Shown in pieces: positions 6,127 through 36,716 of a stretch of DNA of 64,000 nucleotides (positions are counted from its first letter, which is position 1; each line of letters opens with the position of its first letter). Location: assembly GCA_000991575.1 (NCBI GenBank), contig LBRU01000009.1:698-64697 (forward strand), in the 5' to 3' direction. Below the pieces are notes generated by a model. That model did no database searches and was not told the DNA's origin. It was given only the letters and a program-made list of their open reading frames with translations. A program made the translations under genes and the position numbers. This DNA comes from a candidate division TM6 bacterium GW2011_GWE2_36_25. Its GTDB lineage: Bacteria; Babelota; Babeliae; Babelales; UBA12409.

Positions 6127-6372
6127 ATGAAAAAGATTTTTATTTCATTACTTTTAATTATGTTATGTACCCCAAAACAAACTAAGCCTAACGGGGAAGG
6201 CCTTGGCATTGGTCTCGGCGTAGGCGCCTTAACCGGTATCGCCATTGGTGCCGCAGCTTCAAGATCTCGTGAACCAAAAGTAGTTTATGTAAGAGCGCCA
6301 GAAAACGATGAAGAAAATGATGAATACACTGATGACGATGATTACCAATCATTTGATGAACAAGATAATTAA
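6127..6372 (+). CDS. small secreted glycine-zipper protein with acidic tail
   Basis: RBS AAGGAG upstream, a signal peptide, a GLGIGLGVGALTGIAIGAAAS zipper, and an acidic C-terminus (ENDEENDEYTDDDDYQSFDEQDN). Its last codon and stop lie inside the repeat element beginning at about 6367. Confidence 0.5.
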   Translation: MKKIFISLLLIMLCTPKQTKPNGEGLGIGLGVGALTGIAIGAAASRSREPKVVYVRAPENDEENDEYTDDDDYQSFDEQDN

Positions 6373-6577
6373 GAACCTCGCAGCAAGCTACGAGGTATAA
6401 CGCTCGTATGGTTCGACTTGCTACATCCTGGGCAAAGTCGAAGGGTCACCACGAGCGCGCTCATCCTGATGCTTCGTCTGCGCTCAGCACTAAAGGCTGC
6501 GCTCATCCTGAGCTTGTCGAAGGATATGAGCGAATATAATGATTATGAAGCAAGCTTCGAGGAGTTTTACCTGTAAA
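6367..6577. repeat. composite hairpin-repeat element, family 1 (copy A, 211 bp, contains one 42-bp unit)
   Basis: It aligns end to end with the reverse complement of 20775-20943, with about 10 substitutions plus one extra 42-bp unit (TGCTTCGTCTGCGCTCAGCACTAAAGGCTGCGCTCATCCTGA). It contains the hairpin modules CGCTCGT...ACGAGCG and CGCTCAT-CCTGAG-CTTG-TCGAAGG-AT-ATGAGCG (6500-6532). Confidence 0.85.
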
Positions 6578-8004: not shown

Positions 8005-10305
8005 ATGAAAAGTTCACGTTTTTTGAGCATATTTTTATTATGCTCAACACTTCTTAATACTCAGATAACAACCGCAATGGATGGCGCTGATCAACAACAT
8101 CAAAGTACACAAAGCTCTTCCGAAACACACGTTTCAGAGGAACCCTCATCACCAGAGACACCCCCAATAGATGAACAAATTGAAACATCTTCAGAAACAC
8201 CTGTGTCAGAAGAGGCCGAAGAACTCGTATCACCAGAGAGATCCCAAATAGATCAACAAGTTGAAAACATTCCTTCAGAAACACATTTGGCACAAGAGGT
8301 TATTGAAGAAGATACATTTCATGAATCAGAAGCTGAAAGCGAAATGCCTGCAATTCAATTTGATGATGAACTTTCAGTATCGGATGAAAAGCCAAAACGA
8401 TCTATTCTATTTTCACTTCTATCTTCATTCATTAACTGGGGTGGTCATATCGTTGGAAACGCCCTGGCTGAAGGATTAGAAGAAGTAAGAAGAATGGTAA
8501 TTCAAGAAGCGGCACGAAGGGGTCAAAGATATGTTGCGGGCAAAGTAGTTACTTTAGCCCAAACCGCAGCACCCCATATTATGAACGCAACACACTCTAT
8601 TTATCGTAAATCATATGATTTTTCTGATAGGCACCCCGTTCTCTCATTATTCACACCTTCAACACTAGCAACTCTTTCTGGAATAACGGTCGCCTCCCTG
8701 GCCGCAAAAAGCGACTTAGTGCCAACCTGGGTAAAAGTTCTCGCTGTTGGTGGAGGAGCTTACTTTGGCGCACTTCAATTAGAAGCACCGTTTCAAGTTC
8801 TTCGTGGCAAACGCTTTTTCATACAACAAGATCATCAAGATTCTCCATCTCTTGAAGAAATCTTTCGATCACAACCAAGAATAATTACAAAAATTATTGA
8901 TACATTACGTGATCAAGATCTTTATGGTGGCTTTTATTATGAAACAAATGGCACAATCTCAGTCTACGGTGAAAATTCTTCAGCTGAAGATAAGCGCAAT
9001 GTTATCAGAGCAATTGCTCGAGAAGCAAACATACCCGTCTTCTTTATAACAAAAGAAGATTTTGAAAATTCTCCAGAAAATGCTCTTAATACCGTACTCA
9101 AAATCATTAAAAAAGCAGATGCCGCAGCTTTTGCTTATAATACCACCTGCTCATTTGTCTGTTTTGAGAACTTCATGGAATTGTTTAATGAATATGAAGA
9201 AATAAGAAACTTGATATCAAGCATTAGATTATGGAACCCATTATATTCTCTTCACCGCATCATATTTTGGGGCATAAATCAACAAGAATCACATGATGAA
9301 CGTCTGAGAGATCAGTTCTTCTCATTTAAATTACAGCTTACACAATCAAGCGAAGGCCATGAAGCAGCGGCCCCATCATTAAAAGTAATACCTCAACATA
9401 TTCCAACCTTTAAGCCAATTAATTTTAGGGAAGACAAGAAAAACGAATTACCATGTTATGAAGCTAGCGATTTAACACTCGAAGATATTACTGGCGGTTA
9501 TCCTGAAGCAATCGAAGTAATTGTTCATGAATTATCAACTCAGACCCCTGGCCAAGGTGCTGATGGAGTCTTATTATGGGGAAAACCCGGCACCGGAAAA
9601 ACAAGACTTGCTCGTGCATTAGCCGGAACATTTAATGTGCCCTTTTTTAACGTTAAGATTTCACGCGTATTACAAGAAGGAACAAACGCAGGAAACTTCA
9701 TCAATGCTCTTTTTGAAAATGCACATAAAAAAGCAATCAGTGATAAGTCAAAATATGCAATTATATTTTTTGATGAATGCGACAGTCTCTTGCAACCACT
9801 TTCTAAAATAACAGATCCAACTATACGATCAGCAAACGTTGCTCTTCGTTCACAATTGAGTGGTTTCACGCAAGACAAAAAAGTTATCTGTATTGCTGCT
9901 GCAAACTCATCACCGAATAAATTAGATGAAGCATTGCTTCGACCAGGAAGATTTGGCACCCACATTCACTTCAAATTACCCAATGCACAAGCTCGTCAAG
10001 AAGTACTGATTTATTACTTATCAGAAATGGAAGATCCTGCGGAAGCTCAAAGAATTGGGAAAAATTTTGTATACGATACCAAAGGGTTTTCTCAAGCAGA
10101 CCTTGAACAGCTCGTTAAAGATTCAAGACGATGGGCAGAAGCATTTGGCTCAACCATCGAAAAGCAACTACCAATCGTATTATCCAATATGAAAAAAAGC
10201 AAAAATCGTGTCACTAAAGACAGATTGGAAGATGAAGCTTATGCGTATTCATCATCAGAAGATGAGGATGATGTTTTAGGCACCGGCAAAGAAGAAGTAG
10301 AATAA
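8005..10305 (+). CDS. membrane-anchored AAA+ ATPase with signal peptide and acidic N-terminal repeats
   Basis: Walker A GKPGTGKT, Walker B IIFFDECD, and second region of homology ...LDEALLRPGRFGTHIHFKLP. There is an N-terminal signal peptide, about 2.3 copies of an ~80-bp acidic repeat (SSETHVSEE..PE..IDEQIE; 8110-8300) and two central hydrophobic segments. No protease domain is present. Confidence 0.8.
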   Translation: MKSSRFLSIFLLCSTLLNTQITTAMDGADQQHQSTQSSSETHVSEEPSSPETPPIDEQIETSSETPVSEEAEELVSPERSQIDQQVENIPSETHLAQEVIEEDTFHESEAESEMPAIQFDDELSVSDEKPKRSILFSLLSSFINWGGHIVGNALAEGLEEVRRMVIQEAARRGQRYVAGKVVTLAQTAAPHIMNATHSIYRKSYDFSDRHPVLSLFTPSTLATLSGITVASLAAKSDLVPTWVKVLAVGGGAYFGALQLEAPFQVLRGKRFFIQQDHQDSPSLEEIFRSQPRIITKIIDTLRDQDLYGGFYYETNGTISVYGENSSAEDKRNVIRAIAREANIPVFFITKEDFENSPENALNTVLKIIKKADAAAFAYNTTCSFVCFENFMELFNEYEEIRNLISSIRLWNPLYSLHRIIFWGINQQESHDERLRDQFFSFKLQLTQSSEGHEAAAPSLKVIPQHIPTFKPINFREDKKNELPCYEASDLTLEDITGGYPEAIEVIVHELSTQTPGQGADGVLLWGKPGTGKTRLARALAGTFNVPFFNVKISRVLQEGTNAGNFINALFENAHKKAISDKSKYAIIFFDECDSLLQPLSKITDPTIRSANVALRSQLSGFTQDKKVICIAAANSSPNKLDEALLRPGRFGTHIHFKLPNAQARQEVLIYYLSEMEDPAEAQRIGKNFVYDTKGFSQADLEQLVKDSRRWAEAFGSTIEKQLPIVLSNMKKSKNRVTKDRLEDEAYAYSSSEDEDDVLGTGKEEVE

Positions 10306-13637: not shown

Positions 13638-15101
13638 TTATTGCCAACTTTTTCTTAAGAAGTTTTTATATGCATCAAATATTTCTCGATTTTGGCTTAA
13701 CTTCTGCCTTATCTGTTTAAAGGCAAAACGCTTAATTTCTTCATTTTCTAATTTGAGAAATTCGGGCAAGAAATCAATAAACCTAATAGCATCTTCGGTA
13801 TAAACCGTCTGTTCTAATATAAAGCGTTTTATAAATTTTATCACACAAGACATTCTTCGGTCTTCTTGAATTTCATTTATATTTCTCACAATTTCATGAA
13901 CCATTTCCAGATTATTGTTTGAGTAAGCGTACTTTAACAAATCAATGAGAGATCGAGGGTTTATTTTTTCTGCTCCTTTTTTCATGAGTAAAAGAGCAAT
14001 TTTTATATTTCTGAGTGTATCACGATGGATTCCTTTTGTTGCAAAATCTAATACAGACCAACCTTCTGCATCGGTAAGAGTAATATTCGCCCGGAACCTT
14101 AGAAGCTCTTTGGCGGTTTTTCTATTTGCAGATAAAGCGGCGCTCATTAAAGCGGTAACGCCATCTCTGTTTGCTCGATTAATATCAGCACCATTTTCAA
14201 GAAGTAAACGAATAATTTCCGGAGTACCAAGTTCTGCGGCAAACATCAATGGTGATATTCCTGCTCGATAGACAAGAATATCACGTTCATATTTATAGGG
14301 ATCATTTGGATCCAGACCCTTTTTTATGAGCGCTTCAACAGCTATGACGTTATGAGAATGAATAGCAGTAAATAAAGGTGGTTCGCTATATGGCCCATGA
14401 GGAGTTCTAATATCGGCACCATGATTAATAAGAATTTGAACGATTTCGTTGTATCCATGCATTATAGCAAATTGTAAAAGAGTAAGGCGATCAGAGGAAA
14501 AAGAAGTGTCGTTGAGATTAAAACCAGGCATCATTACCAAATGTCTTGTTTGTTCTATATTGTTATTTTTTACTGCTTCGATTAATTGCATTTGACTATT
14601 AGAGGCACCATGATCGAGAAGAAGTTGTGCCATTTCAGTATATCCCTGAGCTCGTGCAAATTCTAAAAGAGTATGGCCTTCAAGCATTAACGACCAAATA
14701 TTGAGTTCTATACCGGGTATTGTTATAAGATCATGTGCACGATCTATATTGTTATTTTTTACTGCCTCAATTAATTTCATTTGACTATTATATGCACCGT
14801 GATCAAAAAGAAGTTGTGCGATTTCCGTATACCCATGACTTTGAGCAAATTCTAAAAGGGTAAGCCCTTCAATTGTTAAATAACAAGTATCGAGGTTAAT
14901 ACTTCCACTTGTGATAAGCTCCGATGCCTGCTTTACATTATTAGTTTTTATTGCTTCGATTAATTGTTCAGTGAGCCATTCGGTGGTGCGGAAAAATCTT
15001 GCAATTGATAAAGGCAGATGGTCCAAAAACTCAGCTTGTGCCGGCGATAAGCCCAAAAAATTATTGACAAAAAGGAGATTTTTAAAATTTTCATATCGCA
15101 C
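13638..15101 (-). CDS. ankyrin-repeat protein
   Basis: Multiple ANK consensus stretches (TPLMFAAELGTPEIIRLLLENGADINRANRDGVTALMSAA). In addition there are three ~62-aa tandem repeats (LIEAVKNNNI...LLEFA.A.GYTE.AQLL.DHGA). Confidence 0.85.
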   Translation of the reverse strand: MRYENFKNLLFVNNFLGLSPAQAEFLDHLPLSIARFFRTTEWLTEQLIEAIKTNNVKQASELITSGSINLDTCYLTIEGLTLLEFAQSHGYTEIAQLLFDHGAYNSQMKLIEAVKNNNIDRAHDLITIPGIELNIWSLMLEGHTLLEFARAQGYTEMAQLLLDHGASNSQMQLIEAVKNNNIEQTRHLVMMPGFNLNDTSFSSDRLTLLQFAIMHGYNEIVQILINHGADIRTPHGPYSEPPLFTAIHSHNVIAVEALIKKGLDPNDPYKYERDILVYRAGISPLMFAAELGTPEIIRLLLENGADINRANRDGVTALMSAALSANRKTAKELLRFRANITLTDAEGWSVLDFATKGIHRDTLRNIKIALLLMKKGAEKINPRSLIDLLKYAYSNNNLEMVHEIVRNINEIQEDRRMSCVIKFIKRFILEQTVYTEDAIRFIDFLPEFLKLENEEIKRFAFKQIRQKLSQNREIFDAYKNFLRKSWQ

Positions 15102-20230: not shown

Positions 20231-20632
20231 TTATTTTTCAGAAACCGTCCCCTTTAACATATCAATTACATAGGTACCTGGTTTTTTTACCACTACTTTT
20301 ACTGAACGTTTATGTAAATATCCCAAACCAAAACCTGTTATTACACAAAGAACTTGCTGTTTCCATGGAGATAAAGCATCCCATTGTTTTTTATATTCGA
20401 TACTTTTTTCTTTGATATACGTACACCAATCACCCAAATCTTTTATTACTGATGAGGATGTAGGAAGAACTGCTCCTGAGGCAATTGAATTTATTTGTTC
20501 AGATACCTGAGATTCAGGCACAGACGCAAGAGATGCACCATCTTTATCTGACGAAGAACCATTTGGCACTTCAGCGTAAAGGGAAAGTGAAAAGAAAGAA
20601 CCTAAAAGAAGTGTCAATGAAATCTTATTCAT
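20231..20632 (-). CDS. secreted paralog family C, member 1
   Basis: It has a signal peptide and shares the motif W(D/N)xLSxxKQxxLCxxxGxxLG (QWDALSPWKQQVLCVITGFGLGYL) with 21242-21880. Confidence 0.5.
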   Translation of the reverse strand: MNKISLTLLLGSFFSLSLYAEVPNGSSSDKDGASLASVPESQVSEQINSIASGAVLPTSSSVIKDLGDWCTYIKEKSIEYKKQWDALSPWKQQVLCVITGFGLGYLHKRSVKVVVKKPGTYVIDMLKGTVSEK

Positions 20633-20774
20633 AAGTTTTCCTCCATTTGAAGTTATACTAATAGTTTACCTTTTTTTAAAAAAAACTCAAGAAAAACGGG
20701 GCTTTAAAAACCCCGAATAAAAGTGGTTAAAAACAACACAAATTTAATAAACGTTGAAATAGGCTATTTAATTG

Positions 20775-20943
20775 TTTATAGGTAAAATTCCTCGAAGCTT
20801 GCTTCGCAATCATTGTATTCGCTCATATCCTTCGACAGGCTCAGGATGAGCGCGCTCGTGGTGACCCTTCGACTTTGCTCAGGATGCAGCAAGTCGAACC
20901 ATACGAGCGTTATACCGCGTAGTTTGCTATGAGGTTCTTAATT
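20775..20943. repeat. composite hairpin-repeat element, family 1 (copy B, 169 bp, inverted relative to copy A, lacks the 42-bp unit)
   Basis: Its reverse complement aligns over its full length with 6367-6577, apart from the single 42-bp unit. Confidence 0.85.
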
Positions 20944-20960
20944 GGAAATAAAAACAAAGC

Positions 20961-21194
20961 ATTCACCATGAGCGAGCTTGAAACGGAGTGAAAAGTGAGT
21001 CGAATGGTTTTATCGAACGCTCTTCGTTAAACTTTCTTTGTAATTCAGAAAAATAGAAAACTTTATCGTGCGTTCGGTGAGACCCTTCGAGACACTCGCT
21101 ACGCTCGTTCCTCAGGGCGAACGCGTTAGGTAAAATGGTAAGAATGAAGAATGCGTTCGCCCTGAGCGAAGTCGAAGGGTTTTATCGAACGCGA
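20961..21194. repeat. cluster of three family-2 hairpin modules (fwd 20961-21020 degenerate, rev 21068-21125, fwd 21151-21194)
   Basis: The modules share GCGTTCG..CCTGAG..TCGAAGGG..CGAACGC with the arms at 28155-28300 and 32403-32763. For example, 21152-21192 reads TGCGTTCGCCCTGAGCGAAGTCGAAGGGTTTTATCGAACGC. Confidence 0.75.
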
Positions 21195-21241
21195 GAAGTA
21201 AAAATTATCTTAAAATAAGGATATCAACAATTATCGTAAAT

Positions 21242-21880
21242 TTATTTTTCTGATTTACCAGCTTCTTGAGAAGAAGCATTATCATCAGGTATAAACTTTT
21301 CCGATACTTCAGTTTCTTCTTTTCTCTCAGTTGAAATTTCTTCAGGTTTATAAAAGCTGCTCTCTTTAAAATCATCCCAAATATCTCGTCCAACCGCATA
21401 TAACCCGGCTAAGGTTGCACCCGCAACAGCCATTTTTACCGGAAATCGCGCAACTTTACCTAAAACAATGCCTGATCCTAAACACAAGAGATTTTGCTTC
21501 GTAGATGATAAACCATTCCAATACTGTTGTGCTCTTTTTCCACAAACAAGACTTTTACCTAAAAATTCAACGCTTTCTTTCTTGAATGATCGATAAAAAT
21601 TACGACTTTTCTCATTCAAAGATGTACAAATTTGACAACGCTCCACACTCACCTCAGGTGAAAAGTCGGTTAAAGGAATAACCAAATCTTCTCCTAACCC
21701 CATAGGCACAATACCGGTGCTTGGTAAAAATTCAATTGGTTCAACCTTTTGAGCTTCAGAAATCACTTGAACCTGAGAACCTTTAAAAAATCCTGATAAG
21801 TATTCAAGCGGATTGAAAGCCTGAATTGAAGAGAGTGAAAATAAGGTTAAAAGAGAGAAAACTAAAATTTTCTTATTCAT
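21242..21880 (-). CDS. secreted paralog family C, member 2
   Basis: Signal peptide MNKKILVFSLLTLFSLSSIQA and the motif YWNGLSSTKQNLLCLGSGIVLGKV. The C-terminal tail is acidic. Confidence 0.5.
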   Translation of the reverse strand: MNKKILVFSLLTLFSLSSIQAFNPLEYLSGFFKGSQVQVISEAQKVEPIEFLPSTGIVPMGLGEDLVIPLTDFSPEVSVERCQICTSLNEKSRNFYRSFKKESVEFLGKSLVCGKRAQQYWNGLSSTKQNLLCLGSGIVLGKVARFPVKMAVAGATLAGLYAVGRDIWDDFKESSFYKPEEISTERKEETEVSEKFIPDDNASSQEAGKSEK

Positions 21881-22099
21881 AAAGAACCCCCATTAAAAAT
21901 TTATATTTAACGTTTTCATTCTACCAAAACTGCCAAAAATTGCAAGAAGAATTTAAAGTTTTACTTTTAGTTTTTAGAGGATTGTCGAGATATCAAAATA
22001 TTTTCTTTGAAAAATATTCAAACACCTTTTTTAAAAAGTTTTTAAAATTTTGATGCAATACATTACTCCTGTTACACTAATTCTGCGTAAAGGAGTTTT

Positions 22100-24289
22100 A
22101 TGGATTTCGCTGAATTTTTATCAACCGAATTAAATAACGAACAACAAAAAGCGGTTAGGCATGCAAAAGGACCTCTTCTGGTTATTGCGGGTGCAGGCTC
22201 AGGCAAAACGCGTGTTATAACCAGTCGCATTATCAACCTTATACTCACCGAAAAAGTTACTCCAACTTCAATTATTGCATTAACGTTTACTAATAAAGCT
22301 GCCCAAGAAATGCGTGAACGCGTACAAAAAAGCATTGGCATACCGGCCACTCCTTTTAAAAATAACAGTTTTTTTATTGGAACTTTCCATTCTTATTGCT
22401 TGCGACTTCTTAAAAAAAATGCACACATTTTAAAACTCGATCATTTTTCCATTCTCGATGGCGATGATCAAATAAGCATGTTAAAGAAATTAGTTGATGC
22501 GCATTGCCCTAAAAAAATTCAACCACGCCAAGCTCTTTATCAAATATCCACCCTCAAAAACAATCTCCTCAACCAGCAAGAAACACTCATTGATCCTACC
22601 GTACAAGAACTTTATAATTTATATGAACACGAAAAAAGATTAAGCAACTGTTTAGATTTTGACGATTTACTCATTAAAGCACTTGAACTTTTCAGCTCAA
22701 AAAATTTTAAAACAGCACACCAAAATCATATTCGTCATGTTCTTGTTGATGAATATCAAGATACGAATGTTGTGCAAAATGAATTGCTCAAAGAAATGTG
22801 CCTCGATAAAAAAAAATTCATCATCGATTCACTCTGTGCCGTAGGAGATGAAGATCAATCTATTTACTCATGGCGTGGTGCAACGATTGATAATATGCTC
22901 AATTTCAAAAAAGATTTCCCCGGAACAACACTCATAAAAATTGAACAGAACTATCGCTCAGTAAAACCAATTCTTGAAGCGGCAAATCATATCATTAAAC
23001 ATAATCAAAATCGCCATCCGAAAAAATTGTGGTCAACACGTGAAGGCTCAAACAATATTTTGGAGCTTACGTGCATGTCCGGATTTCAAGAGGCGGATAT
23101 GATTGCGGCAAGTGCTTCATTGTTACAACAAAAAAATGAATTACAAAATTGTGCAGTCCTCTACCGCACCCATTTTCAATCACGTCTTATTGAAGAAGCA
23201 TTAATAAAAAAATCAATTCCGTACAAAATTATCGGCGGCATTCAATTTTATGAACGCAAAGAAATTAAAGACCTGCTCGCCTATTTACGTTTATTAATTA
23301 ATCCTTTTGATAGAATTGCGCTTTTTAGAATACTCAACTGCCCTCCTCGCAGATTGGGTGACAAATTCGCAGAACAATTTCAAAAAGCATGGGAACAAGA
23401 ACCATTTCAAACATTTACTGATATTGCACAAAAACTTTTAGAAGATTTAAAACCTCAACAAAAAAGCAACCTTGAAGATTTTATTAATATTTTCTCATCG
23501 ATAGATCTCTCTTTTTCCCCTGCGCACGCAATCAACCACATGAGCAAAAAATGTGGTTACCTCACTTATCTTAAGGAAGAGTACGAACCCCAAGAAGCAG
23601 AGGCACGCATTCAAAACATTCAAGAATTAATTAATGCTGCTCGCTATTTTGAAGAACAGGGATTAGAAACCACTGAACAATTTCTTCAAGAAATTGCCCT
23701 TTTACAAGATAAAATTAACCAAGAAAATAACACGAACGAACGCCTAACCCTCATGACTATTCACGCAGCAAAAGGACTCGAATTTGACACAATCATTCTT
23801 GCAGGGCTCGAAGAAGGACTCTTGCCCAGTTCAAAATCCCTCGAAAATGAGTCAAATATCGAAGAAGAGCGACGATTATTATATGTAGGTATCACAAGGG
23901 CACGCAAAAAATTAATTCTCTTACAAGCAGGATATCGACACACTTTCGGTTCTATGACTTATCAACAACCCTCTCGCTTCCTCAAAGAACTACCCAATAC
24001 GGGCATTCAGAGGGAAGATTGCTCATATTGGAAAGAATGTCAGACAATTCAATTTTTACGCAGTTTTTTCGGCATAATAGCACCAGAACAGTCAATCCAA
24101 ACCTTTGGCCCCGCAAAAAAATTTAAGGCAGCCTCTAAAAAAGATCTGCACTCGTATCCTTCGACAAGCTCAGGACGAGCGCAGCCTTTAGTGCTGAGCG
24201 AAGCCGAAGCATCAGGACGAGCGCAGCCTTTAGTGCTGAGCGAAGCCGAAGCATCAGGACGAGCGCAGCAGGACGAGCGCAGCCTTTAG
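22100..24289 (+). CDS. uvrD: UvrD/PcrA-family ATP-dependent DNA helicase, helicase core; reading frame terminated inside a repeat array
   Basis: Motif I GAGSGKT, motif II VDEYQDTN, YRS, and motifs V/VI (TIHAAKGLEF...YVGITRARKKL). The final ~45 aa are translated repeat (SGRAQPLVLSEAEA). The TAG stop at 24287-24289 is created by a 14-nt partial repeat unit. Confidence 0.9.
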   Translation: MDFAEFLSTELNNEQQKAVRHAKGPLLVIAGAGSGKTRVITSRIINLILTEKVTPTSIIALTFTNKAAQEMRERVQKSIGIPATPFKNNSFFIGTFHSYCLRLLKKNAHILKLDHFSILDGDDQISMLKKLVDAHCPKKIQPRQALYQISTLKNNLLNQQETLIDPTVQELYNLYEHEKRLSNCLDFDDLLIKALELFSSKNFKTAHQNHIRHVLVDEYQDTNVVQNELLKEMCLDKKKFIIDSLCAVGDEDQSIYSWRGATIDNMLNFKKDFPGTTLIKIEQNYRSVKPILEAANHIIKHNQNRHPKKLWSTREGSNNILELTCMSGFQEADMIAASASLLQQKNELQNCAVLYRTHFQSRLIEEALIKKSIPYKIIGGIQFYERKEIKDLLAYLRLLINPFDRIALFRILNCPPRRLGDKFAEQFQKAWEQEPFQTFTDIAQKLLEDLKPQQKSNLEDFINIFSSIDLSFSPAHAINHMSKKCGYLTYLKEEYEPQEAEARIQNIQELINAARYFEEQGLETTEQFLQEIALLQDKINQENNTNERLTLMTIHAAKGLEFDTIILAGLEEGLLPSSKSLENESNIEEERRLLYVGITRARKKLILLQAGYRHTFGSMTYQQPSRFLKELPNTGIQREDCSYWKECQTIQFLRSFFGIIAPEQSIQTFGPAKKFKAASKKDLHSYPSTSSGRAQPLVLSEAEASGRAQPLVLSEAEASGRAQQDERSL

Positions 24290-24644
24290 TGCTGAGCGAA
24301 GCCGAAGCATCAGGACGAGCGCAGCCTTTAGTGCTGAGCGAAGCCGAAGCATCAGAACGAGCGCAGCCTTTAGTGCTGAGCGAAGCCGAAGCATCAGGAC
24401 GAGCGCAGTCTTTAGTGTTGAGCGAAATCGAAGTATCCGCGCAACCCTCAAGAGAAAGCCATTTTTCAATTCAACATTCCTCTAACAAAAATTTCAATCA
24501 CCAAAAAATAAATTTTTCTGCGAAACACAATACTCCAATAAATAACGATCTAAAAAAGAATAGCAATTACCCCCATAATTCAATTAACACAAAATTAAAA
24601 ACGCACAACGACGCGCTCGTCCTGAGCTTGTCGAAGGATACGAG
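24151..24644. repeat. repeat-bounded insertion inside uvrD/pcrA: 32-bp perfect inverted repeats (24151-24182 / 24613-24644) enclosing a 42-bp tandem array and an AT-rich core
   Basis: Left arm CTCGTATCCTTCGACAAGCTCAGGACGAGCGC is the exact reverse complement of right arm GCGCTCGTCCTGAGCTTGTCGAAGGATACGAG. Both are family-1 hairpin modules. Confidence 0.85.
24171..24436 (+). repeat. 42-bp tandem repeat array (6 units plus one 14-nt partial unit at 24255-24268)
   Basis: The unit is CAGGACGAGCGCAGCCTTTAGTGCTGAGCGAAGCCGAAGCAT. Units start at 24171, 24213, 24269, 24311, 24353 and 24395 (the last is degenerate). Confidence 0.9.
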
Positions 24645-24828
24645 CACATCGATGTGCTTTCAAAAATGTGAATACTCATGGAAAAAGCATCAACCGGTTA
24701 CGCACAAAACATTTGGTGTTGGAGTAATTCAAGATGTAGAAAAAAGGCCGGATGGTTCAACACACATCACGGCCAAATTTAAAAATGGTATCAAAAAAAT
24801 TGATAGCAAATTTTTAGAAGCAGTTTAA
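24289..24828 (+). CDS. uvrD: detached C-terminal segment of the same UvrD/PcrA helicase (different frame)
   Basis: It ends in WKKHQPVTHKTFGVGVIQDVEKRPDGSTHITAKFKNGIKKIDSKFLEAV. This is the conserved PcrA/UvrD C-terminal Tudor-like domain (W..G..V.H..FG.G.V......V.F...G.K.L...F). It has no start codon or RBS of its own other than a GTG inside the repeat. Confidence 0.7.
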   Translation: MLSEAEASGRAQPLVLSEAEASERAQPLVLSEAEASGRAQSLVLSEIEVSAQPSRESHFSIQHSSNKNFNHQKINFSAKHNTPINNDLKKNSNYPHNSINTKLKTHNDALVLSLSKDTSTSMCFQKCEYSWKKHQPVTHKTFGVGVIQDVEKRPDGSTHITAKFKNGIKKIDSKFLEAV

Positions 24829-24873
24829 ATGAAACAATGAGAAGCATTCACACGCGGTCCCAATAAAATCAAT

Positions 24874-25884
24874 TCAATATTTTGTAACGGTAATAGTTGT
24901 CTCTTTTTCAATTTCACTGACATCTAGATGCGACGAAATTTGTAAATTTTTATTAATAATTCGTGCAATAACTTCACATTTACCAAGTGAATCAATAAAA
25001 AACAATTTATCTTCTTTTTCGTTTCGACACATATGAGATATATCAAAACGTGACATCCCCCGATTGAAAAATCTTCTCTTGGTTAAAAAAAGAGGTAAAT
25101 CTAAAGAAGGCAGATCAAAAACCTCATGCGTTTCTCGATTGAAATAAAAAAAGGGATCTCTTTCTCGTCTCATCTCACTTATTGAGTAAAAACCCCGTTC
25201 TTCCTCACTCAAAAGAGCCAAGAGCTCTCCTTTCTGGTCCCACGCCGGCATAGCAGAAGTACTCATTGCAGCAAAAATAGGATTGGAAACATTACATTCT
25301 TCAGTATCAATAATGAATCCTTGATAATTATAACGACATGGAAGCGGATGCTTATAACGAAAAAAAGCTAAATTACGATTATCTGAATTCCACGTTAATA
25401 GAGGAGGACGATCACATCCTATGCCAGGCACAATGATACTTTTTTGCAATGTTCCACGAAACAGTCCCTGTTTATAATGACCTCTTTTTAAACTTTCCTT
25501 ATCATAAATATAAACACGGTCTATAAAAGTTTTTTTATTACGTCCCACAATTGCAACATAATCACCACGCGGAGACCACTGTAATGCCACAATAAAATCA
25601 TCATCAAACATCCGCATCGGCCTAAAAAAATATTCTGGCCTACAAAGACTTTTTCCCATTCTACAACATCTCAAGTTATACAATCCTAACATTTGCGCAT
25701 GAAGCCCATCTTCCTTTTCTAGCTGCACAATATTAAGAAACAACGCTCCATCAGGAGAAAAGTCACCGTAAACAGAAGGATCAATTTGATAAAAACTATC
25801 CCCCATCGAAAAGAGATTATTTACCAAGGTTAAAAACACTAAAAAAAATATTTTTTTCATAATCTTTCCCATTTCCCCTTTCAT
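24874..25884 (-). CDS. secreted beta-propeller-like protein, paralog 1
   Basis: It has a signal peptide (likely start MKKIFFLVFL at 25860). The motifs DFSPDGALF, WSPRGDYVAIVG, LTWNSDNRNLAFFRY and AWDQKGELLALL resemble PD40/TolB-type blades. It is paralogous to the next gene. Confidence 0.5.
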   Translation of the reverse strand: MKGEMGKIMKKIFFLVFLTLVNNLFSMGDSFYQIDPSVYGDFSPDGALFLNIVQLEKEDGLHAQMLGLYNLRCCRMGKSLCRPEYFFRPMRMFDDDFIVALQWSPRGDYVAIVGRNKKTFIDRVYIYDKESLKRGHYKQGLFRGTLQKSIIVPGIGCDRPPLLTWNSDNRNLAFFRYKHPLPCRYNYQGFIIDTEECNVSNPIFAAMSTSAMPAWDQKGELLALLSEEERGFYSISEMRRERDPFFYFNRETHEVFDLPSLDLPLFLTKRRFFNRGMSRFDISHMCRNEKEDKLFFIDSLGKCEVIARIINKNLQISSHLDVSEIEKETTITVTKY

Positions 25885-27878: not shown

Positions 27879-28154
27879 ACTCGATCTTCTTCTACATTAG
27901 CAAAATTCATTTTTGAAAATAAATAGTTTTAAAAAAATAATCTTATTTATTCGACTCAGTGATTGTTATTCAAAATATAATTATGAAAGAACTTTTAAAA
28001 ATTTCGGGTTTAATAAATACGTTATCATAGACCTCTTCCGAAACAATAAAGCACTCAAACGTTTTTAACGTTGCCCCTATTAATGCTTATATTGATAATC
28101 AAGAAGTTATTCACCATAAATAAATTTGATAATAAAGGTTGAATTTGACTTCAC

Positions 28155-28300
28155 GCATTCGCCATGAGGAACGAGCATAGCGAGTGTCTCGAAGGGTTTT
28201 GCCGAACGCACTTATTAAGATAAATCCATAATGTTACTCAGTGTACGTGTTCGATGAGACCCTTCGAATCGCCATTATAATGGCTCCCTCAGGGCGAACG
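28155..28300. mobile_element. MITE-like internal-deletion derivative of the GIY-YIG element (two inverted family-2 arms, 29-bp core)
   Basis: The arms are 28155-28211 and 28241-28300. The core TTATT/AAGATAAATCCATAATGTTACTCAG matches the first 5 nt (32463-32467) and the last ~30 nt (32674-32702) of the interior of the 32403-32763 element. Confidence 0.7.
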
Positions 28301-32399: not shown

Positions 32400-32766
32400 T
32401 TTCTCGCGTTCGCCCTGAGGGAGCCATTGTAATGGCGATTCGAAGGGTTTTATCGAACGCACTTATTTCATAAAACCAGTCCACCCAAACATAATAAGTC
32501 GTTCTTTTTTTTGACGGGTCCATTTTTTTATTTTTCGTTCTGCTGCTAAGACTTCTAATCTTGAAGTAAATTTTTCTGCATAAACAAGTTTAAGTGGCCT
32601 GCGATTAAAAGTATAACATTTATATAAACCCATATTGTGCTCAGAAATGCGTATCATTGCATTTTAAAATATAAAGATAAAATTCCATAACATTACTTCA
32701 GGTGCGCGTTCGATAAAACCCTTCGAATCGCCATTACAATGGCTCCCTCAGGGCGAACGCGAGAAA
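32400..32766. mobile_element. GIY-YIG nuclease remnant framed by perfect ~60-bp inverted repeats (family-2 hairpin arms)
   Basis: 32403-32460 is the exact reverse complement of 32706-32763 (58/58 by manual comparison; 61 nt including the flanking TTT/AAA). The only cargo is the ORF 32463-32657. Confidence 0.75.
32463..32693 (-). pseudogene. decayed stand-alone GIY-YIG (URI/COG2827-type) endonuclease
   Basis: The ORF reads ..ISEHNMG..RRPLKLVYAEKFTSRLEVLAAERKIKKWTRQKKERLI, which matches the C-terminal two-thirds of small GIY-YIG proteins. The same frame upstream reads MLWNFIFIF-stop-NA-MIRIS. This gives an in-frame TAA (32664-32666) and loss of the GIY/YIG segment. Confidence 0.6.
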
Positions 32767-34364: not shown

Positions 34365-35727
34365 TTGCATTCTTATTTTATTTGGTGCCTTGGGTGATTT
34401 GGCAAAGAAAAAAATTATTCCGGCGCTCTATTCACTAGTACACAAAGAGCAGCTCGACAATTTACACATCATCGGCACTGATTTAGCAAATATCTCAAAA
34501 CATAACATGCTCAAAGCTGCACAAGAACTTTTGCCTGAAATCGATGAAAAAACATGGCATGCATTTGAACAAATTACACATTATCAGCAACTCGATATTA
34601 ATAATTTAGAAGACTTTAAAAAACTAAAAGAATTTATTGAGGTTATAGAAAAGAAACACAATCTTTCTGGAAATCGATTAATATATTGTGCGACACCATC
34701 AGATCTTTTTAGCACGATTACCAAACAGAGTCATGCTGCCCGCATTATTACCTGCACGTCAATTGAAGAAAGACCATGGCAACGCATTATTTATGAAAAA
34801 CCTTTCGGGCGTGATTACACATCGGCAAAAAAACTTAATAAAGAAATTCACAATTGCCTCAATGAGACACAAGTTTATCGCGTTGATCATTATCTCGCAA
34901 AAGAGCTTATTGCCAATATCACGTTACTGAGATTCACCAATCGAATGCTTGAACCGCAATGGAATCATCATGACATTGCATCGGTAGAAATTATTTTAGA
35001 TGAAGAAATCGGTGTAGCACATCGTGGAAATTATTATAATCAAACAGGCGCTCTTCGCGATGTGGTACAAAATCACATATTTGAACTTCTTGCGTTAGTA
35101 AGCATGGAACCACCGACGACTATTACCGGATCAGACTTACAAGAAAAACGTGCTGAGGTTCTCAAAAATCTTTCTTTCGACAGCGGCATTCTCGGACAAT
35201 ATGAAGGATTTCGTACAATCGATGGTGTAAAAAAAGATTCTATGACAGAAACGTTTGCAGCTCTAAAACTCTTTGTTAATAACGAACGCTGGAAAGGTGT
35301 TCCTTTTTACATTCGTACGGGCAAATGTTTACAAAAAACTAAAAAATTAATTCATCTCAATTTTAAACCAGAACATTGTCGTTTAATCGCCGGCTGTCCA
35401 TTACCCGCAAACCGTTTAACCATTGCTATTGAACCTCACGCAGGATTTTCGCTTGAACTTAATGCAAAAAAACCTGGTTACACAACTACCGTTGTTCCTA
35501 TCACGATGGAATTTTGTCATGAATGTTTATTCGGCGTTTATACACCTCAGGCATATGAAGTAATTTTATTAGAAGTCATTGATGGCGACCAAGGAATCTC
35601 GGTCCGCTTTGATGAAATTGAATACAGCTGGAAAATTATTGATGAAATTTATCGCAAACAATTACCTCTCTATTTTTATAAATGCGGAAGCAATGGACCA
35701 GATGAAGAATTTGAGGGAAAAATATGA
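34357..35727 (+). CDS. zwf: glucose-6-phosphate 1-dehydrogenase
   Basis: N-terminal LFGALGDLAKKKIIPALY, the active-site motif RVDHYLAKE, and EKPFG. It overlaps pgi by 8 nt. Confidence 0.9.
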   Translation: MRDCILILFGALGDLAKKKIIPALYSLVHKEQLDNLHIIGTDLANISKHNMLKAAQELLPEIDEKTWHAFEQITHYQQLDINNLEDFKKLKEFIEVIEKKHNLSGNRLIYCATPSDLFSTITKQSHAARIITCTSIEERPWQRIIYEKPFGRDYTSAKKLNKEIHNCLNETQVYRVDHYLAKELIANITLLRFTNRMLEPQWNHHDIASVEIILDEEIGVAHRGNYYNQTGALRDVVQNHIFELLALVSMEPPTTITGSDLQEKRAEVLKNLSFDSGILGQYEGFRTIDGVKKDSMTETFAALKLFVNNERWKGVPFYIRTGKCLQKTKKLIHLNFKPEHCRLIAGCPLPANRLTIAIEPHAGFSLELNAKKPGYTTTVVPITMEFCHECLFGVYTPQAYEVILLEVIDGDQGISVRFDEIEYSWKIIDEIYRKQLPLYFYKCGSNGPDEEFEGKI

Positions 35728-36716
35728 AGATCGGCATCATTGGTTTAGGAAAAATGGGAAGCGCAATTGCCACACGACTTGCACAAGGAGATCATGATGT
35801 TATTGGTTATGATCCACATGTAAAAATAACCATTAACCGGGTAAAACAAGTTGACGCACTCCAAGCAATCACTCAACAAGAGATTATTTGGCTTATGGTT
35901 CCTGCAGAAGCCATTGATAAAATCTTGCAAGAACTTACACCCCATTTAATTGAAAAAAACATATTGAAAGGCTGCGCTCGTCCTGATGCTTCGTCTACGC
36001 TCAGCACTAAAGGCTGCGCTCGTCCTGATGCTTCGTCTACGCTCAGCACTAAAGGCTGCGCTCGTCCTGAGCTTGTAATTATTGATGGCGGAAACAGTTT
36101 TTATAAAGATTCTAAAAGACGTGCAAGCACATTGGCAAAATCAAACATTTTTTATCTTGATTGTGGAACCTCTGGTGGCATTCATGGATTAAAAGATGGT
36201 TTTTGTTTAATGATCGGTGGCAATGAAGATGCATTTAAAAAAGCAGAACCCATTTTCGAAACAATTGCAGCAAAAGATGGTTATGCCCTAGTTGGTCCTT
36301 CTGGCGCAGGTCATTATGTCAAAATGGTGCATAATGGAATTGAATACGCGTTACTCCAAAGTTATGCAGAGGGCTTTTCAATTTTACACGCAAGCCGACA
36401 ATTTCCCCATTTAAATTTAGAACAAATAAGTGGCTTATGGATGCATGGTTCAATTATACGTTCCTTTTTACTTGAATTAACTCATGAAATTTTTAAAGAA
36501 AAAATAGATTTTAACAAAATTAAAGGAATAATTGGAGAAAGTGGCACTGGTAGATGGGCACAAGAAGAAGCAAATTTATTAGGCCTTAATACACCGGCGC
36601 TTGAAAGTGCTTTGAAAACGAGAAAAGAATCACAGATAAAGGGCGACTCGTTTACCATGAAACTCATCGCCCTTTTACGAAATAAATTTGGTGGCCATCC
36701 TGTTGAAAAAGAATAA
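35724..36716 (+). CDS. gnd: 6-phosphogluconate dehydrogenase (short, YqeC/Gnd-like form) carrying an in-frame repeat insertion
   Basis: MKIGIIGLGKMGSAIA Rossmann start, IIDGGNS, GTSGG and GAGHYVKMVHNGIEYA. A 36-aa insert (KGCARPDASSTLST x2 plus KGCARPEL) sits directly before IIDGGNS. Confidence 0.85.
   Translation: MKIGIIGLGKMGSAIATRLAQGDHDVIGYDPHVKITINRVKQVDALQAITQQEIIWLMVPAEAIDKILQELTPHLIEKNILKGCARPDASSTLSTKGCARPDASSTLSTKGCARPELVIIDGGNSFYKDSKRRASTLAKSNIFYLDCGTSGGIHGLKDGFCLMIGGNEDAFKKAEPIFETIAAKDGYALVGPSGAGHYVKMVHNGIEYALLQSYAEGFSILHASRQFPHLNLEQISGLWMHGSIIRSFLLELTHEIFKEKIDFNKIKGIIGESGTGRWAQEEANLLGLNTPALESALKTRKESQIKGDSFTMKLIALLRNKFGGHPVEKE
35967..36076 (-). repeat. 42-bp unit array (about 2.6 units) inside gnd, opposite orientation to the uvrD array
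   Basis: ATGCTTCGTCTACGCTCAGCACTAAAGGCTGCGCTCGTCCTG occurs at 35986-36027 and 36028-36069, with partial units on both sides. It is the reverse complement of the 24171-24436 unit with 3-4 substitutions. Confidence 0.85.

What the first reader, a model, noticed from the sequence alone, without database searches (positions are those of the whole stretch)
24255..24289. A 14-nt partial repeat unit frameshifts uvrD/pcrA and detaches its C-terminal domain
Between the second and third full 42-bp units there is an extra CAGGACGAGCGCAG (24255-24268), which is the first 14 nt of a unit.

It shifts the frame so that the next unit is read ..QQDERSL-TAG, with the stop at 24287-24289.

Conceptually deleting these 14 nt joins 22100-24289 to the 24289-24828 frame. 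The result is one 904-aa ORF that ends in the canonical PcrA C-terminal domain. I verified this codon by codon across the junction.

Four explanations are possible:
- a recent slippage-induced pseudogenisation or gene split
- a phase-variable (repeat-number-dependent) switch
- an assembly or sequencing artefact in a tandem repeat
- ribosomal frameshifting
Basis: seen in the sequence. Interest (0 to 1): 0.62.

Follow-up and report, generated by a model that had tools for sequence, protein, structure and literature searches.

The report
Scaffold-join artefact inside PcrA repeat array
The apparent frameshift that splits this bacterium's PcrA/UvrD helicase is almost certainly a stitching error by the short-read assembler inside a 42-base tandem repeat, so the gene is probably intact. 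The repeat itself is a real GC-rich repeat element that sits in frame in the gene.

Summary
A 42-bp array (24171-24436) contains an extra 14-nt half-unit (24255-24268). It puts TAG at 24287-24289, and removing it gives one 904-aa PcrA/UvrD ORF.

The 14 nt is very probably not biological. The window comes from a TM6/Dependentiae MAG of the Rifle GW2011 project. A later paper from the same group describes that project's data as 150-bp reads assembled with IDBA-UD at maxk 100.
- A sister assembly has a 75-N scaffold gap whose left edge is exactly window 24268.
- The contig to the right of that gap equals window 24269 onward plus 12 extra leading bases.
- A k=100 de Bruijn simulation reproduces both contig ends (98 nt and 96 nt into the array) for any array with at least four identical units.
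- So the window is the left unitig abutted to the right unitig with 12 nt trimmed. A true 26-nt overlap would leave exactly 14 nt duplicated.

Near-identical proteins from other assemblies are intact (876 and 932 aa, 4 and 8 units).

What is real is a ~468-nt in-frame insertion with perfect inverted-repeat ends. It lies in the disordered linker before the Tudor domain and belongs to a dispersed GC-rich repeat family. The same family also sits in frame in the 6PGDH gene.

The parts
22100..24289 (+). PcrA/UvrD helicase core ORF as assembled (729 aa, = KKQ02838.1), ending at the artefactual TAG
   Evidence: Pfam UvrD-helicase E=7e-80 and UvrD_C E=1e-72. It is 100% identical to P0001, 'ATP-dependent DNA helicase PcrA [candidate division TM6 bacterium GW2011_GWE2_36_25]'.
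24171..24436 (+). Tandem array of 42-bp (14-aa, SGRAQPLVLSEAEA) units: four identical 'G' units, one 'A' variant (24353-24394), one degenerate terminal unit (24395-24436), plus the 14-nt partial
24255..24268 (+). The 14-nt 'partial unit'. It is the last 14 nt of the left k=100 unitig, and the suspect join lies between 24268 and 24269
   Evidence: The sister scaffold L003 has its 75-N gap starting right after the equivalent of 24268. Its right contig equals window 24269 onward at offset 12 (3560/3560 identical). Simulated k=100 unitigs end at 98 nt and 96 nt into the array.
24287..24289 (+). TAG stop created by the 14-nt shift. Every unit contains CCTTTAGTG, read as P-L-V in the correct frame
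24289..24828 (+). Downstream ORF as annotated (179 aa, KKQ02839.1): the rest of the array, an AT-rich linker and the C-terminal domain
24679..24825 (+). PcrA/UvrD Tudor-like C-terminal (RNA-polymerase-binding) domain, WKKHQPV...KFLEAV
   Evidence: The profile of 22 orthologous C-termini hits 6yi2, 7egs, 4c2t and 5dma. PF21196 matches 15/22 members, and the window's own sequence scores 16.9 bits, below the cut-off. Domain function from PMC5397179.
24151..24182 (+). Left arm of a perfect 32-nt inverted repeat. The outer 7 nt (CTCGTAT) are also present at the uninterrupted site of a relative, and the inner 25 nt are the element end
24613..24644 (-). Right arm of the inverted repeat (reverse complement of the left arm, 100% complementary)
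24158..24639 (+). Segment absent from the closest insert-free orthologue (L004/P0128). It is 482 nt as assembled and 468 nt (156 codons) without the 14 nt. It includes the array and a unique AT-rich stretch at 24437-24612
   Evidence: Alignment to L004, whose site reads ...CTGCACTCGTAT|ACGAGCGTATC.... P0002 and P0003 orthologues (743 and 739 aa) also lack it. The AT-rich part is unique in the window.
6367..6577 (-). Intergenic copy of the ~170-nt GC-rich palindromic element carrying the same arm plus one 42-bp unit
20775..20945 (+). Intergenic copy of the same element without a 42-bp unit
35967..36074 (-). 2.6 copies of the same 42-bp unit, lying in frame inside the 6-phosphogluconate dehydrogenase-like gene 35724-36716 (+)

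Best explanation
**Conclusion.** The 14-nt partial unit is a scaffolding or assembly artefact, not a mutation.

**How it arose**
- The array has too many identical 42-bp units for 150-bp reads and a k=100 de Bruijn graph to traverse.
- The assembler therefore produced two unitigs. The left one runs 98 nt into the array (2 units + 14 nt). The right one starts 96 nt before the 'A' variant unit (12 nt + 2 units).
- In this MAG the two unitigs were abutted with only 12 nt removed. If the true array has four identical units, the unitigs overlap by 26 nt, so 14 nt (CAGGACGAGCGCAG) are left duplicated and the frame shifts.

**What the real gene most likely is**
- It is most likely one intact PcrA/UvrD ORF of about 904 aa in this sample.
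- The disordered linker between its helicase core and its Tudor domain carries an in-frame insertion of about 468 nt.
- The insertion is bounded by perfect inverted repeats and contains a variable number of 14-aa units.
- It belongs to a dispersed GC-rich palindromic repeat family of this Dependentiae lineage.

**Shown and inferred**
- Shown: the coincidence of the junction with the unitig ends, the intact alleles and the insertion polymorphism.
- Inferred: the exact software step that made the join, and the true unit number.
For: **1. The sister scaffold breaks at the same base.** L003 (GCA_000991965.1, same project) reads flank + 2 units + CAGGACGAGCGCAG + 75 N + AAGCCGAAGCAT + units. Its left contig ends exactly at window 24268. 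Its right contig from base 13 is identical to window 24269 onward over 3560/3560 nt.

**2. Simulation reproduces the contig ends.** In a k=100 de Bruijn graph, any array with >=4 identical units gives a left unitig ending 98 nt into the array and a right unitig starting 96 nt before the A unit. These are exactly the edges seen. Arrays with <=3 units are fully resolved.

**3. The dataset's methods fit.** A later paper from the same group (Castelle et al. 2017), citing Brown et al. for the data, reports 150-bp paired-end HiSeq reads and IDBA-UD with -mink 40 -maxk 100 -step 20 (PMC5220378).

**4. [quoted passage not shown] It lists wrong repeat numbers and unmerged overlaps at scaffold joins (PMC7111523).

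**5. Other assemblies also fail in the array.**
- Two ENA re-assemblies of project samples have N gaps in it (L001, L002).
- NCBI and TPA proteins P0122-P0125 are partial, cut by contig ends inside it.
- P0125 starts AEAS..., which is the start of the right unitig.

**6. Intact proteins exist.** P0126 (932 aa, 8 units) and P0129 (876 aa, 4 units) are identical outside the array and are single ORFs.

**7. The junction lacks a slippage signature.** CAG|CAG has no more than 1 nt of the microhomology expected for slippage (read from the sequence).
Against: - No raw reads could be inspected, so absence of the junction k-mer in the reads is inferred rather than shown.
- The right-hand side of the join is 12 nt inside the predicted unitig rather than at its end, so an extra trimming step has to be assumed. 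I recall that IDBA-UD skips bases of the next contig when the estimated gap is negative, but I could not check the code.
- The DNA of the two intact JGI versions could not be retrieved. Their unit counts may themselves be assembler approximations.
- The array does differ between samples (L002 starts G, T', A), so rare real variants cannot be excluded.
Confidence: 0.88

Rival explanations
1. Real, recent frameshift. A 14-nt duplication in this population split PcrA into a helicase core and a separate polypeptide carrying the linker and Tudor domain, either as pseudogenisation or as a gene split.
For: - The sequence as deposited reads this way, and both ORFs are annotated (KKQ02838.1, KKQ02839.1).
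- A GTG at 24289 overlaps the TAG.
- The array is genuinely polymorphic between samples.
Against: - The junction coincides to the base with the k=100 unitig end that is a scaffold-gap edge in the sister assembly. By my estimate the chance of this for a real event is roughly 1 in 42 x the number of units.
- No other assembly contains the junction. The ORFs starting MLSEAEAS in the ENA contigs follow N gaps, not a frameshift.
- Intact alleles exist.
- The Tudor domain downstream is fully conserved, with no further lesions.
Confidence: 0.08
2. Phase-variable switch. Changes in repeat number toggle expression of the full-length helicase.
For: Unit number differs among assemblies, with 4, 8, and 6 after repair.
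Against: - The unit is 42 nt = 14 codons, so gain or loss of whole units never changes the frame.
- Only a partial unit can shift the frame, and it is seen once, at an assembly breakpoint.
- No other frameshifted allele is on record.
Confidence: 0.02
3. Programmed -1 ribosomal frameshifting joins the two ORFs during translation.
For: ORF2 is in the -1 frame relative to ORF1 and overlaps its stop.
Against: - There is no in-frame X XXY YYZ heptamer between 24139 and 24289.
- The only one, A7 at 24115, lies upstream of -1-frame stops at 24124 and 24136.
- All orthologues, and the near-identical proteins from other assemblies, are single ORFs.
- A +1 shift at CUU UAG would enter a frame that terminates before the C-terminal domain.
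Confidence: 0.01

Closest known systems
Local assembly errors at tandem repeats in IDBA-UD metagenome scaffolds (Chen et al. 2020, Genome Res, PMC7111523)
   Same: - It is the same assembler and the same laboratory pipeline.
- It is the error class described there: wrong repeat content, or duplicated sequence at a scaffold join inside a protein-coding gene with internal repeats.
- The junction sits at the unitig ends.
   Different: - Here the join carries no Ns, so it looks like a clean frameshift.
- The exact software step was not verified.
Rickettsia palindromic elements (RPEs): selfish palindromic repeats inserted in frame in protein-coding genes (Ogata et al. 2000, from my own knowledge; summarised in PMC10969869)
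   Same: - The element is short, non-autonomous and palindromic, in the genome of a putatively host-dependent lineage (Dependentiae lifestyle is from my own knowledge).
- It is inserted in frame in housekeeping genes (PcrA linker, 6PGDH Rossmann domain), and close relatives lack it.
   Different: - There is no sequence relationship, and the phylum is different.
- The element is GC-rich in an AT-rich genome.
- It carries a 42-bp module that amplifies tandemly.
- Its 18-nt core also occurs in many unrelated phyla.
- Transposition was not demonstrated.
PcrA/UvrD with a C-terminal Tudor RNAP-interaction domain behind a disordered linker (Sanders et al. 2017, PMC5397179; Urrutia-Irazabal et al. 2021, PMC8318588)
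   Same: - The helicase core and the C-terminal Tudor-like domain match.
- The insertion lies in the region that paper calls natively disordered and poorly conserved.
   Different: The linker here is about 160-190 aa longer than in close orthologues, because of the repeat insertion.
Contingency loci (phase variation driven by simple sequence repeats)
   Same: An intragenic tandem repeat whose copy number appears to vary.
   Different: The unit length is a multiple of three, so copy-number change alters linker length, not reading frame.

Membership tests
De Bruijn unitig-join (scaffolding) artefact | The anomaly's breakpoint coincides with the end of a unitig predicted from the assembler's k | tested here: met
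   The left side ends exactly 98 nt into the array, which is the k=100 horizon. The right side is the predicted right unitig minus 12 nt. maxk 100 is documented for the dataset.
De Bruijn unitig-join (scaffolding) artefact | Independent assemblies of the same population break or gap at the same place | tested here: met
   L003 has 75 N at the same base. L001 and L002 have N gaps in the array. P0122-P0125 are cut by contig ends there.
De Bruijn unitig-join (scaffolding) artefact | No read supports the junction sequence | not testable with these tools
PcrA/UvrD SF1A helicase | UvrD-helicase ATP-binding domain and UvrD_C domain | tested here: met
   PF00580 at 268.9 bits and PF13361 at 245.7 bits.
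PcrA/UvrD SF1A helicase | C-terminal Tudor-like RNAP-interaction domain | tested here: met
   The orthologue profile hits 6yi2, 7egs, 4c2t and 5dma. 15/22 members match PF21196. The window's own sequence is below the Pfam cut-off (16.9 against 23.9 bits).
Phase-variable contingency locus | Changes in repeat-unit number alter the reading frame (unit length not a multiple of 3) | tested here: not met
   The unit is 42 nt = 14 codons.
Programmed -1 ribosomal frameshift | Slippery heptamer X XXY YYZ in the 0 frame within the overlap window | tested here: not met
   None between 24139 and 24289. The A7 at 24115 is followed by -1-frame stops.
Programmed -1 ribosomal frameshift | The two-ORF arrangement is conserved in relatives | tested here: not met
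   Complete orthologues are single ORFs of about 730-830 aa. Of the proteins in the same 90%-identity cluster, the full-length ones (742, 876 and 932 aa) are single ORFs and the rest are fragments cut by contig ends or N gaps.
MITE / RPE-like in-frame palindromic element | Terminal inverted repeats | tested here: met
   32-nt arms, 100% complementary. 25 nt of each arm are absent from the empty site.
MITE / RPE-like in-frame palindromic element | Target-site duplication | tested here: inconclusive
   There is an apparent 2-bp AT duplication relative to L004. But L004 is a diverged lineage (about 88% nt identity), the site is itself a palindrome (CTCGTATACGAG), and it resembles the outer stem of the element family.
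MITE / RPE-like in-frame palindromic element | Multiple dispersed copies in the genome | tested here: inconclusive
   The arm and the 42-bp unit recur at 6367-6577, 20775-20945 and 35967-36074. The whole 480-nt insert, including its AT-rich core, is unique in the 64-kb window, and the rest of the genome could not be searched.
MITE / RPE-like in-frame palindromic element | Insertion preserves the host reading frame, and close relatives lack it | tested here: met
   468 nt = 156 codons. L004/P0128, P0002 and P0003 lack it. In 6PGDH, P0134 and P0135 are 99% identical downstream of the insertion site, yet only P0134 carries the insert.

The most novel reading that the evidence does not exclude
The frameshift itself is not the novel part. 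What surrounds it may be: a GC-rich palindromic repeat family, undescribed as far as I could find, in a clade of Dependentiae (TM6).
- Like the Rickettsia palindromic elements, it colonises housekeeping genes in frame. Here it sits in the disordered tether between the PcrA helicase core and its RNA-polymerase-binding Tudor domain, and inside the Rossmann domain of 6PGDH.
- It carries a 42-bp (14-aa) module that amplifies tandemly, so that tether length differs between populations.
- The element's 18-nt core, CCTTCGACAAGCTCAGGA, also occurs in hairpin-type repeats of many unrelated bacterial phyla.
Probability: 0.55. Interest if true: 0.45.

Novelty: not a real feature. Interest (0 to 1): 0.12.

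Why it matters
**Practical importance**
- The deposited annotation splits an essential-type helicase into 'PcrA' (KKQ02838.1) and a 'hypothetical protein' (KKQ02839.1).
- Anyone counting pseudogenes, gene splits or loss of the C-terminal domain in reduced, host-dependent Dependentiae genomes would be misled.
- The case also gives a simple, reusable test for suspicious frameshifts in tandem repeats of short-read MAGs: check whether the breakpoint sits exactly k-1 or k bases from the nearest distinguishing base.

**Biological importance**
- The real feature is modest but of some interest: a repeat element tolerated in frame in the flexible tether of PcrA, with copy number that appears to vary.
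- It adds a possible non-rickettsial example of palindromic elements inside coding sequence.

Tried and rejected
- **Apparent independent support for the frameshift.** ORFs P0127 (165 aa) and P0130 (193 aa) start MLSEAEAS like the window's ORF2 and at first looked like the same frameshift in other assemblies. Their DNA (L001, L002) shows that they simply follow N gaps, so I rejected this.
- **DNA of the intact JGI versions (P0126, P0129).**
  - The exact-protein look-up found nothing.
  - A locus-specific 27-mer scan of metagenome contigs found nothing.
  - A protein-guided scan found only distant relatives.
- **Exact look-up of the window's own 729-aa ORF:** not on record.
- **Scan of genome contigs for the 24-nt unit core:** no match, so the source species is apparently not in that collection.
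- **Protein search with a 42-aa peptide spanning the junction:** no scorable hits, so uninformative.
- **Rfam at a permissive threshold over 20500-25000:** only two sub-threshold chance hits, none on the repeats.
- **Full-text searches for the repeat's DNA and peptide strings:** no paper.
- **Hairpin test on the 18-mer core.** I tested whether its flanks in other phyla form an extended hairpin. There was only modest enrichment: 19/126 had >=5/6 complementary bases, against 2.7% in the control.
- **+1 frameshift at CUU UAG (prfB-like).** Rejected, because that frame ends before the C-terminal domain.
Full report
**1. The observation**

- 42-bp units start at 24171, 24213, 24269, 24311, 24353 and 24395. 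The unit at 24353 carries a G->A change at 24356, and the last unit is degenerate.
- Between the second and third units lies CAGGACGAGCGCAG (24255-24268), which is the first 14 nt of a unit.
- ORF 22100-24289 (729 aa) therefore ends ...SGRAQQDERSL-TAG. ORF 24289-24828 (179 aa) is open in the -1 frame.
- Removing the 14 nt gives one ORF of 904 codons.
- The array is 58% G+C in a window of 37%.
- The upstream ORF is a UvrD/PcrA helicase: PF00580 at E=7e-80 and PF13361 at E=1e-72.
- The C-terminal 49 residues score below Pfam's cut-off on their own (PF21196, 16.9 against 23.9 bits).
- A profile of 22 orthologous C-termini hits solved UvrD/PcrA C-terminal domains (6yi2 at E=9e-6, also 7egs, 4c2t and 5dma). 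Fifteen of the 22 match PF21196.

**2. Source of the window**

- The 729-aa ORF is KKQ02838.1, 'ATP-dependent DNA helicase PcrA [candidate division TM6 bacterium GW2011_GWE2_36_25]'. The 179-aa ORF is KKQ02839.1.
- This is a metagenome-assembled genome from the Rifle groundwater project. A later paper from the same group, citing the original study, describes the data as 150-bp paired-end HiSeq reads assembled with IDBA-UD (-mink 40, -maxk 100, -step 20) (PMC5220378).

**3. The decisive comparison**

The 90%-identity protein cluster contains twelve members.
- Two are full-length single ORFs that are identical outside the array: P0126 (932 aa, 8 units) and P0129 (876 aa, 4 units).
- Several are fragments cut at contig ends inside the array (P0122-P0125).
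- P0127 and P0130 start MLSEAEAS like the window's ORF2. Their DNA (L001, L002) shows that they follow runs of N, not a frameshift.

The sister NCBI assembly L003 (GCA_000991965.1, LBSN01000028.1) is the key.
- It reads flank + 2 units + CAGGACGAGCGCAG + 75 N + AAGCCGAAGCAT + 2 units + A unit + last unit.
- Its left contig ends at exactly the base equivalent to window 24268.
- Its right contig, from base 13 onward, is identical to window 24269 onward over all 3560 nt.
- The window is therefore literally 'left contig + right contig minus its first 12 nt'.

**4. Why the contigs end there**

I simulated a k=100 de Bruijn graph on the flanks plus n identical units, the A unit and the tail.
- For n <= 3 the array is traversed completely.
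- For every n >= 4 the left unitig stops 98 nt into the array (2 units + 14 nt). Its last 100-mer still contains the distinguishing flank base C at 24169.
- For every n >= 4 the right unitig starts 96 nt before the A unit (12 nt + 2 units). Its first 100-mer already contains the distinguishing A.
- These are exactly the gap edges in L003 and exactly the left side of the anomaly in the window.
- With four identical units, the two distinguishing bases lie about 174 nt apart. That is longer than a 150-nt read, so no single read can fix the unit number.
- If the true array has four identical units, the two unitigs overlap by 98 + 96 - 168 = 26 nt. Trimming only 12 nt leaves 14 nt duplicated, which is the 'partial unit'.
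- P0125 (KKP95052.1, from a third MAG of the project) begins AEAS-GRAQ..., which is the start of the same right unitig.

I recall that IDBA-UD's scaffold writer skips bases of the next contig when the paired-end gap estimate is negative, and writes Ns when it is positive. That would explain -12 in one sample and +75 in another. This is memory, not a tested fact.

The laboratory that produced the data has itself described such errors (PMC7111523).
- Scaffolds can carry wrong repeat numbers.
- Overlaps at scaffold joins can be left unmerged.

**5. The rival explanations**

*A real 14-nt duplication.* It would have to end, by coincidence, on the very base where the k=100 unitig ends. I estimate the chance at roughly 1 in 42 x the number of units. 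The junction CAG|CAG also has at most 1 nt of microhomology.

*Phase variation.* It fails on structure, because the unit is 14 codons and changes in whole-unit number never change the frame.

*Programmed frameshifting.*
- It lacks a slippery heptamer in the productive interval 24139-24289.
- The only in-frame X XXY YYZ is A7 at 24115, which is followed by -1-frame stops at 24124 and 24136.
- A prfB-like +1 shift at CUU UAG enters a frame that terminates before the C-terminal domain.
- All orthologues are single ORFs.

I could not inspect reads, so I leave about 8% for a real frameshift.

**6. What is really there**

Several relatives lack the inserted segment.
- The closest insert-free orthologue is P0128 on L004 (742 aa, about 88% nucleotide identity). 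It reads ...CTGCACTCGTAT|ACGAGCGTATC... at this site.
- The more distant P0002 and P0003 (743 and 739 aa) also have short linkers.

The insertion has these features.
- The window carries an extra segment at 24158-24639. It is 482 nt as assembled, and 468 nt = 156 codons without the artefact.
- It is bounded by a perfect 32-nt inverted repeat (24151-24182 / 24613-24644). The inner 25 nt of each arm are new relative to L004.
- There is an apparent 2-bp AT duplication. This is weak evidence, because the site is itself a palindrome and L004 is diverged.
- The insert comprises the array plus a unique AT-rich stretch at 24437-24612.
- It lies in the part of PcrA that Sanders et al. describe as natively disordered and poorly conserved, just before the Tudor domain that binds RNA polymerase (PMC5397179).

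The array also differs between samples. L002 starts G, T', A, whereas the window starts G, G. Some polymorphism is therefore real, even though unit counts from short reads are unreliable above three identical units.

**7. The repeat family**

- The arm and the 42-bp unit recur in the window.
  - An intergenic ~170-nt palindromic element at 6367-6577 carries one unit.
  - A second intergenic copy at 20775-20945 carries none.
  - 2.6 units at 35967-36074 lie on the opposite strand.
- The last site lies in frame inside the NAD-binding domain of a 6-phosphogluconate dehydrogenase-like gene (35724-36716).
- Among that gene's orthologues, some have no insert (P0135, P0143, P0145, P0171). One has only the arm (P0132, GCARPELVEGYE). 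Others have units plus the arm (P0133, P0134).
- P0134 and P0135 are 99% identical downstream of the insertion site, yet only P0134 carries the insert.
- This is the behaviour described for Rickettsia palindromic elements (summarised in PMC10969869). Membership in a transposing MITE family is not established: inverted ends were found, the target-site duplication is inconclusive, and dispersed copies were found only in part.
- Rfam has no family for these repeats. The paper library contains none of the strings I searched.

**8. Verdict**

- The biological interpretation (frameshift, detached C-terminal domain) is very probably wrong.
- Novelty of the finding as stated: not a real feature.
- Interest is low (0.12). 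A moderately interesting by-product is the in-frame GC-rich repeat family in Dependentiae housekeeping genes.

Noticed in passing
window 35724-36716 (+), repeat at 35967-36074: The 6-phosphogluconate dehydrogenase-like gene carries 2.6 copies of the same 42-bp unit on the opposite strand. They read in frame as KGCARPDASSTLST x2, inside its NAD_binding_2 domain. Orthologues have no insert, the hairpin arm only, or units plus the arm. P0134 and P0135 are 99% identical downstream of the insertion site yet differ by presence or absence of the insert.
   Followed up: partly
They come from species-representative genomes of many phyla, including Sphingomonadales, Dehalococcoidia, Bacteroidota, Verrucomicrobia, Acidobacteriota, Eremiobacterota, Patescibacteria and Dependentiae. 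It often appears with an inverted partner (CTGAGCYTGTCGAA) or in short tandem runs. I found no Rfam family and no paper containing the string.
   Followed up: partly
window 21741-21834, inside ORF 21242-21880 (-): The sister assembly L003 lacks these 94 nt, which is not a multiple of 3. An ENA contig (L002) begins at window 21834. This is probably another assembly breakpoint or indel between assemblies of the same population.
   Followed up: no
window 21010-21200, 28153-28267, 32405-32460, 32705-32761: A second family of GC-rich palindromic repeats (core GCGTTCGCCCTGAGCGAAGTCGAAGGG) is dispersed in intergenic regions.
   Followed up: no
P0004 (PcrA orthologue, 62% identity, 829 aa), residues ~84-170: A different Dependentiae PcrA carries an insertion of about 85 aa near its N-terminal domain. 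It contains AQDERS and HPERESKD-type peptides, which are translations of the same kind of GC-rich repeat. This suggests that in-frame repeat insertions are common in this phylum.
   Followed up: no
window 14554-14966 and 8148-8299: Two other intragenic-looking tandem repeats, with periods of 189 nt (2.2 copies) and 81 nt (1.8 copies), both multiples of three.
   Followed up: no
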